Below, piece by piece: positions 18,620 to 40,468 of a DNA stretch of 64,000 nt. Both the position numbers and the translations under genes were made by a program. Every line of letters starts with the position of its first letter. Within the stretch, counting starts at the first letter, position 1. The notes under the pieces were generated by a model. It did no database searches. It was not told where the DNA came from and saw nothing but the letters and a program-made list of their open reading frames with translations. The DNA comes from Thermococcus sp. JdFR-02 (GTDB taxonomy: Archaea > Methanobacteriota_B > Thermococci > Thermococcales > Thermococcaceae): NCBI GenBank assembly GCA_002009975.1, contig MTLP01000012.1:64001-128000 (forward strand), given 5' to 3'.

Positions 18620-18679
18620 AGGCAATGATGAATGATGGGCGAACCGATTTGTGATGAAGGTTAGGTGATCGCTGAGCTT
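18620..18679 (+). ncRNA. C/D box sRNA (sRNA1)
   Basis: C ATGATGA 18625-31, D' CCGA 18644-47, C' GTGATGA 18651-57, D CTGA 18672-75, terminal stem AGGC/GCTT. Confidence 0.9.
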
Positions 18680-18715
18680 GAAAACCTTTTTAAACTCAAC
18701 AGGATATTTGGATTG

Positions 18716-18771
18716 AAAGATGATGAGTTCAGCCTTATCTGAGGAGTGATGAGGGAGTGACGGACTGATTT
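18716..18771 (+). ncRNA. C/D box sRNA (sRNA2)
   Basis: C ATGATGA 18720-26, D' CTGA 18739-42, C' GTGATGA 18746-52, D CTGA 18765-68. Two 12-nt guides. Own TATA-like TTTTTAAA about 25-30 nt upstream. Confidence 0.93.
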
Positions 18772-37380: not shown

Positions 37381-37443
37381 AACCTCAGACTGGAGCGACT
37401 TCCACATCAATTTCGGTAGCTACCCTGATAGTCATCACAGGTT
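37381..37443 (-). ncRNA. C/D box sRNA (sRNA3)
   Basis: Reverse complement reads AACCT GTGATGA CTATCAGGGTAGCTA CCGA AA TTGATGT GGAAGTCGCTCCAGT CTGA GGTT, giving C, D', C', D boxes and an AACC/GGTT terminal stem. Confidence 0.9.
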
Positions 37444-37467: not shown

Positions 37468-38013
37468 TTAAAGTTTTTTAATTTTCCTTTTGTAGAGTGA
37501 ATTTCCATGCGAATCCATAGCAACAACTAATGGTAGATTTTCAACCTCAAGAACCCAAACAGCTTCAGGAATTCCCAATTCTTCAAGCCAGTAAACATTT
37601 ACAACTTTCTTAATGCTTTTAGCCGCTAAAGCCCCGGCACCACCAGTAAATGCAAAATAAACTCCTTTGTACTTTTTTAGAACTTTTAATGTTCTCTCTC
37701 CCATTCCGCCCTTGCCGATGACTCCCTTTACACCCAAAGCTAGGATTTCTTCACTATATCCTTCCATTCTCGCGCTTGTTGTAGGTCCAGCCGAGACTAT
37801 CTCATATCCTTGAGGAGTTTTTTTGACTACAGGACCGCAATGATAAATTACAGCCCCTTTTAGGTTAAAAGGAAGCTTATCTCTTCTGGCAAGCTCTATG
37901 ATTTTTTTATGCGCTAAGTCCCTTGCTGTATAAATTGTACCTGAAAGATTAACTATATCGCCAGCTTTGAGCTTTAAAACATCTTTTTCGTGCAGAGGGG
38001 TTTTTAAATTCAT
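37468..38013 (-). CDS. Fe-S hydro-lyase beta subunit (class I fumarate hydratase/tartrate dehydratase)
   Basis: IYTARDLAH, YHCGP, SAGPTTSARM, IGKGGM, LGIPEAVW, MDSHGNSLY. Confidence 0.92.
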   Translation of the reverse strand: MNLKTPLHEKDVLKLKAGDIVNLSGTIYTARDLAHKKIIELARRDKLPFNLKGAVIYHCGPVVKKTPQGYEIVSAGPTTSARMEGYSEEILALGVKGVIGKGGMGERTLKVLKKYKGVYFAFTGGAGALAAKSIKKVVNVYWLEELGIPEAVWVLEVENLPLVVAMDSHGNSLYKRKIKKL

Positions 38014-38076
38014 GACATCACCACCTTTGCGGGCTGGAAGCTTCGCCGTTCACGGCGAGGAGGAAAGCCCGTGAAG

Positions 38077-38084
38077 TTTATATA
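38077..38084 (+). promoter_or_regulatory. TATA box inside the element
   Basis: GTGAAG-TTTATATA. Predicted start near 38107-38108 (C/G initiator). Confidence 0.6.
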
Positions 38085-38107
38085 CCTCATTTTCCATTCC
38101 TCCTTTC

Positions 38108-38228
38108 GATGATGCCCAACGGTATATCCGTTTGGAGGAGGGCTCTCTGACCGAGCTGTATGAGGTCTACCGCAACCGAAGTTCCCATGTTGGGAACCTC
38201 CCGCCCTTCAGAGCGGGAAGGAGGTCAG
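38108..38228 (+). ncRNA. TnpB omega/reRNA-like (HgcC/sotRNA-like) structured RNA
   Basis: Four hairpins: AACGG/CCGTT, GCTC/GAGC, GTTCCCA/TGGGAAC, CCCGC/GCGGG. Loop CTGACC (38147-52) is complementary to terminal GGTCAG (38223-28), forming a pseudoknot. Confidence 0.65.
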
Positions 38229-38229
38229 C

Positions 38230-39084
38230 TCATTGATAAACCTTCACTTTTCCATCTCTCTCAATCTCAACTATTGCTTTTCTATTTGCCCAGCATTGAA
38301 TTATAACCCCTACAGGAAGTGAAGCTGGATGGCGATGAGCATATTCTATCTTAACATCTAGTGCTGTTGTTTTTCCTCCCAGTCCCATTGGTCCTATTCC
38401 CAAAGCATTGATCTCCTCTAAGATTTCTTCTTCAAGCTTTGCGATCTCTTCTTTTTCATGTCTAACTCCTAAAGCTCTTAAAAGGGCTTTTTTAGCAAGT
38501 TTTAGAGCAAAATCAGCTCCACCACCAATTCCAACGCCAACTATTATGGGCGGACAGGGTTTTCCTCCGCCTTCTACAACGGTTTTAACAATAAATCTCT
38601 TAACTCCTTCAATACCCTCACTTGGATTCAACATTGCCAAAGCAGAGCAGTTTTCACTTCCCCCTCCTTTTGGAAGAACATAGATTTTTATTTTATCTCC
38701 CTCGACAAGCTCCCAATGAATTATTGGAACAAAACGACCAGTGTTATCTCCCGAATTTTTGTTTGTTAGTAAATCTACAGCGTTGGGTCTTAAAGGAATT
38801 TCGACTGTTGCTCTCTTCGTTGCATTAATGAGCTTCTCCTTTAATCCTTTTAAATAGGGATTTTCAACTCCAGCTTCAACGAAAAAGGTTATTGTCCCAG
38901 TATCTTGACACATGGGAAGTGAATATTCCTTTCCAAGTTCTATTGTTTTTAAAATATTTTCAAGCTGAAGTTTTGCGATTGAATTTTCTTCCTCTTCATA
39001 CGCTTCCTTTAGTGCCTTAACTGTGTCTTTTGGTAAAGTTGTAACAGCTAAGCGGATTGCCTCGACTAGGGCATCTTCAATAAT
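38230..39084 (-). CDS. Fe-S hydro-lyase alpha subunit (class I fumarate hydratase/tartrate dehydratase), apparent ATT start
   Basis: PMCQDTG, PLRPN, PKGGGSEN, PCPP, GIGPMGLGG, HPASLPV, QCWANR. Frame is open 57 codons upstream of ATG 38913, back to ATT ATT GAA behind GGGGTGG. Confidence 0.88.
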   Translation of the reverse strand: MIEDALVEAIRLAVTTLPKDTVKALKEAYEEEENSIAKLQLENILKTIELGKEYSLPMCQDTGTITFFVEAGVENPYLKGLKEKLINATKRATVEIPLRPNAVDLLTNKNSGDNTGRFVPIIHWELVEGDKIKIYVLPKGGGSENCSALAMLNPSEGIEGVKRFIVKTVVEGGGKPCPPIIVGVGIGGGADFALKLAKKALLRALGVRHEKEEIAKLEEEILEEINALGIGPMGLGGKTTALDVKIEYAHRHPASLPVGVIIQCWANRKAIVEIERDGKVKVYQ

Positions 39085-39131
39085 ACTACCACCCCATAGC
39101 TAACTATCAAAGTGATGGTTAAAAAGGTAAG

Positions 39132-40391: not shown

Positions 40392-40468
40392 TGGTGGACC
40401 GGGCGGGATTTGAACCCGCGGCCTCTGGCTTGCGAAGCCAGCGCTCTACCAAACTGAGCTACCGGCCC
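40392..40468 (-). tRNA. tRNA-Ala(CGC), CCA encoded, no intron
   Basis: Reverse complement GGGCCGG TA GCTC AGTTTGGTA GAGC G CTGGC TTCGCAA GCCAG AGGCC GCGGG TTCAAAT CCCGC CCGGTCC A CCA. G3:U70 Ala identity pair. Confidence 0.98.

What the first reader, a model, noticed from the sequence alone, without database searches (positions are those of the whole stretch)
38026..38251. Protein-free IS200/IS605 mini-element that looks like a self-promoted TnpB guide-RNA gene
Seen: a ~200-bp GC-rich insert between the hydro-lyase alpha and beta genes. It has (i) a left-end nested hairpin (TTTGCGGGCT...CTTCGCCGT-TC-ACGGCGAGG...AGCCCGTGAA), (ii) a TTTATATA box at 38077 predicting a start near 38108, (iii) ~120 nt folding into four hairpins, (iv) a loop CTGACC exactly complementary to the terminal GGTCAG, and (v) ~20 nt of host DNA (CTCATTGATAAACCTTCAC) followed by a T-tract. 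No tnpA or tnpB coding sequence remains. Known: IS200/IS605 ends are subterminal hairpins. TnpB omega/reRNAs derive from the right end, close a pseudoknot with the terminal bases and take their guide from flanking DNA. Archaeal HgcC/sotRNAs belong to this class. Inference: this is a minimal element reduced to ends, promoter and omegaRNA, which would load a TnpB (or a nuclease-dead TnpB regulator) encoded elsewhere. Its guide would match the empty site and be antisense to the 3' end of the alpha-subunit mRNA, giving either selfish maintenance in trans or RNA-guided control of the operon.
Basis: partly seen in the sequence, partly recalled or inferred. Interest (0 to 1): 0.85.

Follow-up and report, generated by a model that had tools for sequence, protein, structure and literature searches.

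The report
Gene-less transposon remnant carrying guide RNA
A 207-base remnant of a jumping gene, reduced to its two ends plus a promoter and a guide-RNA gene, sits between two fumarase genes of a heat-loving archaeon; this is a known kind of relic, and no partner enzyme for it was found in this genome.

Summary
Window 38022-38228 (207 bp, + strand) is a protein-free IS200/IS605-family derivative (PATE-like). It consists of a left-end nested hairpin, a conserved BRE/TATA box, an HgcC-family RNA (Rfam RF00062, 52.4 bits against a cut-off of 50) and a right end finishing in GGAGGTCAG.

Contigs of a ~96%-identical strain join 38021 directly to 38229. This is a natural empty site. It fixes the boundaries and shows insertion right after TCAC, inside the ribosome-binding site of the beta gene.

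Full-length parents with the same ends occur in relatives. There tnpB lies on the strand opposite the HgcC RNA, and the window element is that layout minus tnpB. Four helices of the RNA covary. The CUGACC/GGUCAG pseudoknot never varies, so it remains untested.

This assembly holds no cognate (type B) TnpB and no Y1 TnpA. The window copy alone carries three helix-breaking mismatches. It is most likely a stranded relic, possibly still transcribed.

The kind is already documented: HgcC RNAs, Pyrococcus abyssi sRk48/52, and PATEs that encode omegaRNAs. So this is a new member of a known kind. The inverted tnpB/guide layout of the parents and the ribosome-binding-site targeting are the more interesting by-products.

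The parts
38018..38021 (+). TCAC, host target motif (inferred TAM) immediately 5' of the element. On the minus strand it is the GTGA core of the beta gene's Shine-Dalgarno sequence.
   Evidence: Empty-site contigs join 38021 to 38229. TCAC is in this register in 20 of 25 distinct left-end copies, and displaced by one base in 2 more.
38022..38228 (+). The whole non-autonomous element, 207 bp (1-nt ambiguity at the junction, the C at 38022/38229).
   Evidence: Contigs of a ~96% identical strain skip exactly this stretch. Sequence similarity among copies stops right after GGTCAG.
38022..38076 (+). Left end: CACC, then TTTGCGGGCTGGAAG, then the inner hairpin 38041-38060 (loop TTCA), then GGAGGAAAGCCCGTGAAG. 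The outer stem pairs 38025-38035 with 38066-38076.
   Evidence: DNA fold z = -3.29. The motif recurs in relatives at the left boundary of full-length and mini elements. The weak HgcC hit at 37995-38080 (19 bits) reflects the likeness of the left-end and right-end hairpins.
38072..38084 (+). BRE/TATA-like box TGAAG-TTTATATA (TATA at 38077-38084). It is also the deletion junction at which the tnpB segment was lost.
   Evidence: The box is conserved at a fixed distance in 8 of 8 copies. The same junction is present in the truncated copy on contig C7. Function as a promoter is inferred, by analogy with P. abyssi sRk52, whose TSS lies 22 nt after a BRE/TATA box.
38108..38228 (+). Predicted HgcC-type omegaRNA scaffold. 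Helices: P0 38115-38135, P1 38141-38157 (loop CTGACC at 38147-38152), P2 38162-38173, P3 38181-38197, P4 (right-end hairpin) 38201-38216. Terminal GGTCAG is at 38223-38228.
   Evidence: Rfam RF00062 at 52.4 bits. Covariation is seen in P0, P1, P3 and P4. The 5' end is predicted, not mapped.
38229..38251 (+). Flanking host DNA that would be the guide (CTCATTGATAAACCTTCAC), followed by TTTT at 38248-38251. It is antisense to the last codons and stop codon of the alpha gene.
   Evidence: Sequence. It matches the empty site directly after TCAC. There is no second close target in the genome. The 3' end of any transcript is unknown.
37468..38013 (-). Beta subunit gene (Fumerase_C). After the insertion its SD reads GGTGGTGA, half from the element tip (GGTG) and half from host DNA (GTGA).
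   Evidence: Pfam PF05683, E 1e-52. Sequence. Empty site.
38230..39099 (-). Alpha subunit gene (Fumerase). The stop codon lies 1 nt from the element's right end.
   Evidence: Pfam PF05681, E 8.7e-102.

Best explanation
Window 38022-38228 is a non-autonomous, protein-free deletion derivative (PATE/MITE-like) of a Thermococcaceae IS200/IS605-family element.

In the parent ('type B') layout the order is: a left-end hairpin; a tnpB gene read towards the left end on the bottom strand; a BRE/TATA region; and, on the top strand, an HgcC-family RNA that ends at the right end (GGAGGTCAG) and runs on into flanking DNA. An internal deletion removed tnpB and kept both ends, the promoter and the RNA.

The mini-element then transposed. 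This would have needed a Y1 TnpA supplied in trans (inferred). It landed directly 3' of TCAC, between the alpha stop codon and the beta start codon of a two-subunit fumarase-type hydro-lyase operon. The first four bases of the element (CACC, CTCC in most copies) rebuild the Shine-Dalgarno sequence that the insertion split.

If transcribed from its own promoter, it would give a ~120-nt scaffold plus a guide that matches the empty site. With a type B TnpB this RNA would direct cutting of TCAC-flanked empty alleles, the homing and maintenance role established for TnpB/omegaRNA (inferred).

In the present genome neither a type B TnpB nor a TnpA was found, and this copy has begun to lose base pairs. 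It is therefore most likely a stranded relic that may still be transcribed.
For: Identity:
- Rfam HgcC hit above the cut-off.
- The RNA is 79-93% identical to 7 copies in 4 other genomes. The closest (92.6%) lies in a full-length element of G106.

Parent layout:
- Of 31 HgcC loci examined, 7 have the TTTGYGGGCTGGAAG left end about 1.2 kb upstream with an opposite-strand TnpB in between.
- That TnpB carries Cas12f1-like_TNB and OrfB_IS605 domains.
- Rfam finds only HgcC on those loci, on the strand opposite tnpB.
- Protein subtype and RNA subtype go together: B1 TnpB with B1 RNA, B2 TnpB with B2 RNA.

Mobility and boundaries:
- Contigs of a ~96% identical strain join 38021 to 38229 with no extra letters. 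A second allele joins 38022 to 38234 with 5 other letters between.
- Relatives G003, G006, G020 and G015 have alpha and beta adjacent or overlapping.
- TCAC precedes 20 of 25 left ends.
- A truncated copy on contig C7 shares the same deletion junction, so the mini moved as a mini.

RNA under selection in the family:
- 6 pairs show double-sided changes.
- The promoter box is kept in 8 of 8 copies and across 4 different deletion junctions.

Relic status:
- PF01797 is absent from the own genome.
- The best own-genome match to type B TnpB is 30% identical and lies in an IS607-type element on C14. Another is a different TnpB fragment at the end of contig C12.
- The window copy has 3 unpaired positions in P0, P2 and P4, where 4 of the other 7 copies have none.
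- All 6 of its private changes hit columns that are invariant in the other 7 copies.

Prior art consistent with this reading:
- P. abyssi sRk48/52 are intergenic, OrfB-related RNAs driven by a BRE/TATA box.
- PATEs 'often encode omegaRNAs' that need TnpB in trans.
Against: - No transcript data exist for this strain. The 5' and 3' ends are predictions.
- The assembly has 44 contigs, so a repeated type B element could be unassembled. However, tblastn and blastn found no fragment of one at contig ends.
- Two type A TnpB genes (C6, C31), whose own RNAs are also HgcC-family and share the last ~36 nt, are present. Use in trans is therefore not excluded.
- Three mismatches and six private changes are small numbers. 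They are compatible with a still functional RNA.
- That HgcC is the guide of the opposite-strand TnpB is inferred from co-occurrence, not shown.
- The pseudoknot has no covariation support.
- The RNA's MFE is not better than shuffles.
Confidence: 0.75

Rival explanations
1. The RNA is a live trans-acting guide in this cell. It is transcribed and loaded by one of the resident type A TnpB proteins (C6 or C31), or by an unassembled type B TnpB. It directs cleavage of empty alleles (TCAC + CTCATTGAT...), so that the gene-less element is maintained by homing.
For: - The promoter box is intact and at the conserved distance.
- Scaffold helices are mostly intact.
- Type A RNAs also belong to RF00062 and share the terminal hairpin and GGAGGTCAG.
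- Empty alleles do exist in nature.
- Meers et al. state that PATE omegaRNAs would need TnpB in trans.
Against: - Type A and type B TnpB are only 26-27% identical.
- The RNAs are alike only over the last ~36 nt.
- No type B TnpB is in the assembly.
- The window copy has three private helix-breaking mismatches.
Confidence: 0.12
2. The insert has been taken over by the host as a regulator of the fumarase operon. Possible routes are: an antisense RNA convergent with the alpha gene; a structured 207-nt intercistronic spacer that uncouples alpha and beta translation; or its role as donor of the beta gene's SD.
For: - Geometry: the + strand RNA would run antisense into the alpha 3' end. The element tip supplies half of the SD.
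- 17 of 25 left ends lie within 14 nt of a start codon, so the family routinely sits in translation-initiation regions.
Against: - The insert is absent from a 96% identical strain and from the relatives examined, so it is recent and dispensable.
- Its features are those of the transposon family everywhere, not locus-specific.
- There is no evidence of selection on this copy.
Confidence: 0.07
3. HgcC-type RNAs in Thermococcales have a TnpB-independent cellular role, for example as L7Ae-bound structural sRNAs as proposed for sRk52. On this view the window copy is one more gene of that sRNA family spread by transposition.
For: - Phok et al. show L7Ae binding to sRk52 and growth-phase accumulation.
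- Gomes-Filho et al. report a growth effect from over-expressing a PATE RNA in Halobacterium.
- Copies without a nearby tnpB are common.
Against: - Every full-length copy is bounded by transposon ends and paired with a TnpB.
- The RNA's 3' end coincides with the transposon boundary, as expected for a guide RNA.
- Identity of sRk48/52 with this subfamily could not be verified, because the sequences are in supplements.
Confidence: 0.05
4. It is not a mobile insert at all, but a native GC-rich RNA gene or chance structure between the two genes.
For: Only the weak thermodynamic signal of the whole RNA.
Against: The empty site, copies at unrelated loci in other genomes with the same ends, and the Rfam hit.
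Confidence: 0.01

Closest known systems
HgcC family RNA (Rfam RF00062; first described by Klein, Misulovin and Eddy 2002. That paper is recalled and cited; it is not held)
   Same: The window matches the model end to end above the gathering score. It shares the CUGAC loop, the GUUCCC...GGGAAC hairpin, the UUCA-loop terminal hairpin and GGAGGUCAG.
   Different: The score is marginal (52.4 bits). The window belongs to a shorter subtype (B2), in which a 10-nt stretch stands in place of the model's 37-nt middle insert. The best Thermococcaceae matches (111-129 bits) are the B1 subtype.
Pyrococcus abyssi sRk48/sRk52 (Phok et al. 2011, PMC3124441; sections read)
   Same: These are intergenic, repeated, GC-rich RNAs of about 130 nt, conserved across Thermococcales and related to OrfB (TnpB) gene ends. 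The primary transcript starts 22 nt after a BRE/TATA box. They have conserved covarying stems P0-P3.
   Different: Sequence identity with the window RNA could not be checked, because the alignment is in supplementary files that are closed. That paper predates the TnpB guide-RNA concept and does not describe element ends, empty sites or the opposite-strand tnpB.
PATEs (palindrome-associated transposable elements) that carry omegaRNAs (Meers et al. 2023 preprint, passages; Halobacterium VNG_R0052, Gomes-Filho et al. 2015, passages)
   Same: These are protein-free IS200/IS605 derivatives with a fused or retained left end and right end. They are transcribed, and their RNA would depend on a TnpB encoded elsewhere.
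   Different: Here the RNA has its own conserved BRE/TATA promoter, inherited from a parent in which the guide gene is a separate, divergent transcription unit. In this genome no cognate TnpB or TnpA was found.
Canonical TnpB/omegaRNA elements (ISDra2, IS608-type; Karvelis et al. 2021, only the reference list was searched; ISDra2 structure paper, abstract seen)
   Same: The RNA scaffold ends at the right end and the guide comes from flanking DNA. The element inserts 3' of a short motif that would serve as TAM. It has subterminal hairpins and makes no target duplication.
   Different: In canonical elements the omegaRNA overlaps the 3' end of tnpB on the same strand. This is also so in the type A elements of this genome, C6 and C31. 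In the parents of the window element, tnpB is on the other strand and reads towards the left end.

Membership tests
Rfam HgcC (RF00062) | Covariance-model score at or above the curated gathering score (50 bits) | tested here: met
   52.4 bits, E 1.8e-10, model positions 1-130, window 38138-38241 on the + strand.
Rfam HgcC (RF00062) | Conserved secondary structure supported by compensatory changes | tested here: met
   On 8 B2-type copies, 96.8% of cells are paired. 6 pairs change on both sides (0 of 500 shuffles reach this). Slid controls give 0-3 such pairs.
IS200/IS605-family non-autonomous element (PATE-like) | Subterminal hairpins at both ends on the same strand, with no terminal inverted repeats | tested here: met
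   The left-end hairpin has z = -3.29. The right-end hairpin is present but weakened by a C.A mismatch (z = -1.08). Both have TTCA-type loops.
IS200/IS605-family non-autonomous element (PATE-like) | Seamless insertion 3' of a short conserved motif, without target-site duplication | tested here: met
   The empty allele is ...ATCAC|CTCATTG..., with only a 1-nt ambiguity. TCAC is in register before 20 of 25 left ends.
IS200/IS605-family non-autonomous element (PATE-like) | A parent element with the same ends that encodes tnpB (and/or tnpA) | tested here: met
   7 full-length type B elements were found in 7 relatives, and 2 more were inferred from coordinates. None is in the own genome. Y1 TnpA is present in 28 of 97 family genomes, but not inside the type B elements seen.
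IS200/IS605-family non-autonomous element (PATE-like) | No protein-coding gene inside | tested here: met
   There is no ORF with TnpA or TnpB similarity. The 39-aa tblastn hit is an artefact of a stop-to-stop frame that runs across the RNA.
Functional TnpB omegaRNA (guide RNA in this cell) | A cognate TnpB encoded in the same genome | tested here: not met
   The best match to type B TnpB is 30% identical (C14, IS607-type). C6 and C31 are type A (26-27% identical). C12 holds a fragment of another type. Caveat: the assembly has 44 contigs.
Functional TnpB omegaRNA (guide RNA in this cell) | A transcript on the + strand ending in flank-derived guide | not testable with these tools
   The only RNA runs found hold the empty-site strain.
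Functional TnpB omegaRNA (guide RNA in this cell) | A pseudoknot between an internal loop and the bases just 5' of the guide | tested here: inconclusive
   CUGACC and GGUCAG are complementary, but 0 of 6 pairs change on both sides. Variants give only G.U, or in L070 a C.A mismatch.
Functional TnpB omegaRNA (guide RNA in this cell) | RNA-guided, TAM-dependent DNA cleavage | not testable with these tools
   This needs biochemistry.
P. abyssi sRk48/sRk52 family | Sequence homology to the published loci | not tested
   The sequences are in supplementary files, which are closed. Only the described features agree.

The most novel reading that the evidence does not exclude
The window element would be the visible tip of an undescribed IS200/IS605 layout in Thermococcaceae.

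In this layout tnpB is transcribed towards the left end. The guide RNA is a separate gene, transcribed divergently from the same short BRE/TATA region and ending at the right end. Because the guide is a stand-alone unit, deletions repeatedly give promoter-plus-guide minis: at least 4 independent junctions were seen.

The family inserts exactly after TCAC, the GTGA core of ribosome-binding sites, and carries GGAG at its tip. It therefore splits a Shine-Dalgarno sequence and rebuilds it in one step.

On this reading the window RNA could still act as a gene-less 'drive' against the empty alleles that coexist in nature, using a TnpB supplied in trans.
Probability: 0.25. Interest if true: 0.6.

Novelty: new member of a known kind. 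Interest (0 to 1): 0.4.

Why it matters
For this window it turns an unannotated GC-rich spacer into a defined feature: a 207-bp PATE with exact boundaries, a target motif and a natural empty allele.

More generally, it ties the old HgcC family to TnpB elements at single-base resolution in Thermococcaceae. In the paper library searched here, that link is discussed only in the 2015 sotRNA paper.

It also shows a parent layout in which the guide RNA is a self-promoted gene on the strand opposite tnpB. If that layout is confirmed, it offers a natural two-part TnpB system from hyperthermophiles, with protein and guide as separate transcription units. It would also explain why guide-only elements arise so easily.

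The ribosome-binding-site targeting with SD repair is a neat example of a transposon minimising harm to its host.

Tried and rejected
- Transcription of the element. One sample (4 runs, X1-X4) held 25-32% of the words of 37700-38600. When laid, its contigs proved to be a related strain without the insert. They say nothing about a + strand RNA in this strain.
- Phylum-wide Rfam search, run to see whether the founding Methanocaldococcus HgcC genes have the same opposite-strand layout. The 133 genomes sampled held no Methanococci. Matches occurred only in families f1 (68 of 96) and f2 (1 of 2).
- Klein et al. 2002 is not held.
- A second target of the guide in the own genome. The only exact match to the first 12, 16 or 20 nt is the locus itself. 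The 34 hits with at most 1 mismatch in 12 nt show no TCAC in register.
- The left-end pattern with 1 mismatch gave 92 places in 51 of 97 genomes, against 7 for the reversed control. Many 1-mismatch places lie in conserved protein genes and are unrelated. Only the 25 distinct copies that passed a hairpin/GGAGG filter were counted. Some true copies (L038/L078, L094, L098, L099, L111, L114) were dropped by that filter or by de-duplication.
- The bacterial sigma-70 promoter/terminator scanner was not used, because the organism is an archaeon.
- The reading that the left module is the right end of a second, oppositely oriented element was considered, because the type B tnpB ORF runs through it. It was set aside. 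The guide would then lack a fixed TAM, the minis keep the HgcC side, and Rfam finds no RNA family on that strand. It is not strictly excluded.
- Supplementary files of Phok 2011 and Gomes-Filho 2015 (alignments of sRk48/52 and of HgcC) could not be seen. They may show that this subfamily is already aligned there.
Full report
WHAT IS THERE. The window is G000:C2:64001-128000 of a 2.36-Mb, 44-contig, 38% GC genome. Thermococcales-type C/D-box sRNAs (sR22, sR60, sR1) are present in the window.

Between the stop codon of a Fumerase (alpha) gene (38230-38232, minus strand) and the start codon of a Fumerase_C (beta) gene (38011-38013, minus strand) lie 216 bp of 50-54% GC DNA.
- the nested left hairpin (DNA fold -14.7 kcal/mol, z = -3.29, 0 of 200 shuffles as good);
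- TTTATATA at 38077-38084;
- a structured ~120-nt stretch;
- CTGACC (38147-38152) complementary to GGTCAG (38223-38228);
- the flank CTCATTGATAAACCTTCAC followed by TTTT.

Rfam's HgcC model (RF00062) matches 38138-38241 on the + strand at 52.4 bits (gathering 50, E 1.8e-10). A second, weak HgcC hit (19 bits) covers the left hairpin. The minimum free energy of the RNA alone is not better than shuffles (z = -1.04). The case therefore rests on homology and covariation, not on thermodynamics.

IT IS A MOBILE INSERT, AND THE BOUNDARIES ARE NOW EXACT. Four metatranscriptome runs of one sample hold contigs about 96% identical to the flanks (14 differences in 322 nt). One contig joins 38021 directly to 38229, skipping 207 nt with a 1-nt ambiguity. 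Three contigs join 38022 to 38234 with five other letters in between; this is a second empty allele with a different alpha stop codon.

More distant relatives (G003, G006, G020, G015) also have alpha and beta overlapping or a few bases apart. G022 has an unrelated ~200-bp spacer.

The element is therefore 38022-38228, running CACCTTTGCGGG ... GGAGGTCAG. It was inserted without target duplication right after TCAC. The pre-insertion sequence on the gene strand reads ...TAT CAA TGA G|GTGATGTC ATG. So the element landed one base after the alpha stop codon, inside the beta Shine-Dalgarno sequence (GAGGTGAT). Its own first four bases restore a GGTG in front of GTGA.

PARENTS AND SIBLINGS. The own genome has two HgcC hits: the window, and the 3' end of a 424-aa TnpB gene on contig C6. 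A second TnpB, 67% identical, lies on C31. All three right ends finish in GGAGGTCAG. Their RNAs resemble the window RNA only over the last ~36 nt.

The left module (38018-38081) has one 94% identical copy on C7 with no RNA behind it.

Across 97 genomes of the family, HgcC matches occur in 79 (23 over the cut-off; 688 matches at E <= 0.001). I examined 31 loci: the 30 best-scoring plus the window.
- 18 are 'type A', with tnpB on the same strand and the RNA at its 3' end, the canonical layout.
- 1 has only a TnpB fragment.
- 7 are 'type B'.
- 5, including the window, are protein-free, with the left-end motif 60-115 nt upstream of the RNA.

Type B elements (G016, G055, G101, G108, G022, G042, G106) have the following order. 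First comes the left end, C[T/A]CC-TTTGYGGGCTGGAAG-hairpin-GGAGGAAAGCCCGC. Then comes a 375-380-aa TnpB on the opposite strand, reading towards the left end; it carries Cas12f1-like_TNB and OrfB_IS605 domains, and GVDLG, E[KN]LKG and DRDxNA motifs are present. Then comes an AAGTTTATA box, and finally the HgcC RNA on the top strand ending at GGAGGTCAG.

Rfam finds only HgcC on these loci, on the strand opposite tnpB.

There are two subtypes. B1 RNAs score 111-129 bits, and the TnpBs are 82-100% identical to that of G016. B2 RNAs score 49-59 bits, and the TnpBs are 85-100% identical to that of G055. B1 and B2 TnpBs are 50% identical to each other. Protein and RNA subtypes go together.

The window RNA is B2. 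It is 92.6% identical to the RNA of a full-length G106 element and 79% identical to that of G055. The window element is thus type B minus tnpB.

Among 25 distinct left-end copies (with element lengths):
- 7 are full length;
- 7 are promoter-plus-RNA minis of 163-210 bp;
- 10 are ~45-bp single-hairpin units, a left end fused to a right-end tail;
- 1 (C7) is truncated.

C7 shares the window's deletion junction (AAAGCyCGTrAAGTTTAT). The mini therefore existed before it reached these two sites, which means it moved as a mini.

STRUCTURE AND PROMOTER. On 8 B2 copies (alignment A1), similarity runs from TTGATGATG to GGTCAG and stops there, as expected for a transposon boundary followed by variable guide DNA.

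A five-helix model plus the proposed pseudoknot gives 96.8% paired cells. Six pairs change on both sides (0 of 500 shuffles reach this; slid controls give 0-3). Double-sided changes occur in P0, P1, P3 and P4.

The pseudoknot (CUGACC with GGUCAG) shows no double-sided change. Variants give one G.U, and in a B1 mini (L070) a C.A mismatch. Because the columns hardly vary, this neither supports nor refutes the pairing.

A BRE/TATA-like box sits 29-31 nt upstream of GATGATG in 8 of 8 copies. The four B2 minis (window/C7, L111, L075, L114) have four different deletion junctions, all just upstream of that box. This fits an independent promoter with a start near 38108, and it matches what Phok et al. 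mapped for P. abyssi sRk52: a TSS 22 nt after a BRE/TATA box, with a 177/180-nt primary transcript and a 130-nt processed RNA. I could not verify that sRk48/52 are the same subfamily, because their alignment is in closed supplements.

TARGET MOTIF. TCAC precedes the element in 20 of 25 copies in register, and in 2 more displaced by one base. Positions further left are not conserved. 17 of 25 copies have CAT within 14 nt upstream, which is the start codon of a leftward gene. With the element's CTCC tip the junction reads TCACCTCC, the complement of GGAGGTGA. The family thus sits inside ribosome-binding sites and rebuilds them. That TCAC is also the TnpB TAM is inferred from how IS200/IS605 elements work (general knowledge). 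It was not tested.

IS IT ACTIVE HERE? No Y1 transposase (PF01797) is in the own genome, though 28 of 97 family genomes have one.

No type B TnpB is present. The best own-genome match is 30% identical and lies in an IS607-type element on C14 (serine recombinase plus TnpB). A further fragment of a different TnpB runs off the end of contig C12.

The window RNA has three unpaired positions (P0 C.U, P2 A.G, P4 C.A), whereas 4 of the other 7 copies have none. All six of its private states fall in columns that are invariant in the other seven. By contrast the G055 copy has ten private states and no broken pair.

The guide has no second target in the genome.

I therefore read the element as stranded and beginning to decay, though probably still carrying a working promoter. 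Cross-use by the type A TnpBs cannot be excluded.

COMPARISON WITH WHAT IS KNOWN.
- HgcC is a curated family.
- Gomes-Filho et al. (2015) linked its UUCA hairpin to IS1341-type right ends and showed that a PATE-derived RNA is expressed.
- Phok et al. (2011) showed intergenic, self-promoted, OrfB-related RNAs in Pyrococcus.
- Meers et al. (2023 preprint) state that PATEs often encode omegaRNAs that need TnpB in trans.

I did not find a description of the type B layout (tnpB opposite to its presumed guide), or of the ribosome-binding-site targeting with SD repair. The searches were for HgcC, HgcC+TnpB, TnpB+PATE, TnpB+Thermococcus/Pyrococcus, sRk48/52 and TnpB+Thermococcales. These cover open-access papers and bioRxiv only. 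ISfinder and subscription journals were not searchable.

VERDICT. It is a new member of a known kind. Interest is moderate, mostly for the parent architecture and the exact natural empty site.

Noticed in passing
relatives: L037/L065 (G016), L051/L087 (G055), L066, L067, L068, L069, L077: In full-length 'type B' elements tnpB lies on the strand opposite the HgcC RNA and reads through the left-end hairpin. It stops at the TGA of the flanking GTGA. A single short TATA-containing spacer separates the tnpB start from the RNA start, so the promoter may be bidirectional.
   Followed up: partly
window 39085-39100 (minus strand): The alpha (Fumerase) reading frame has no ATG, GTG or TTG start before residue 63. 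An ATG at the expected place (39096-39094) is one base out of frame, just before a GGGG run. Relatives start with an in-frame ATG there. This could be a frameshift, an assembly error in the homopolymer, or a rare ATT start.
   Followed up: partly
own genome, contig C7:43635-43698 (L004 1501-1564): A truncated copy of the same mini: the left end plus the deletion junction, with no RNA part. A 142-aa minus-strand ORF reads through it and stops at the TGA of the flanking TCAC.
   Followed up: partly
relatives: L015, L024, L041/L096, L095, L100, L104, L109, L113: ~45-bp single-hairpin units: left-end tip, one hairpin and the GGAGGTCAG tail. They look like left-end/right-end fusion 'solo' remnants, and they also sit right after TCAC next to start codons.
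   Followed up: partly
own genome, contig C6:112590-113959 and C31:5896-7200: Two type A TnpB elements with HgcC-type RNAs. In a three-sequence alignment they carry VVGYPKG where type B has the LEKLKG/IENLKG glutamate motif. The catalytic Glu may be rearranged or lost.
   Followed up: no
own genome, contig C14:2837-4625 and C12:61012-61509: C14 holds an IS607-type element: a serine recombinase of 209 aa plus a TnpB of 394 aa. C12 holds the C-terminal part of a further TnpB type with its RNA region, cut by the contig end.
   Followed up: no
window 37383-37442 (minus strand): A C/D-box sRNA, sR22 (52.8 bits), lies directly downstream of the beta gene. sR1 and sR60 are at 18621-18770, and a tRNA is at 40395-40468.
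   Followed up: no
L012 (G022:C32), between the alpha and beta homologs: This relative has a different, AT-rich ~200-bp spacer at the same junction, unrelated to the window insert. Its nature is unknown.
   Followed up: no
window 38107-38113 and 38146-38150: The other seven B2 copies begin UUGAUGAUG, which contains UGAUGA (C-box-like), and have CUGA in the P1 loop. The window copy reads UCGAUGAUG. This may relate to the L7Ae binding reported for sRk52. It was not analysed.
   Followed up: no
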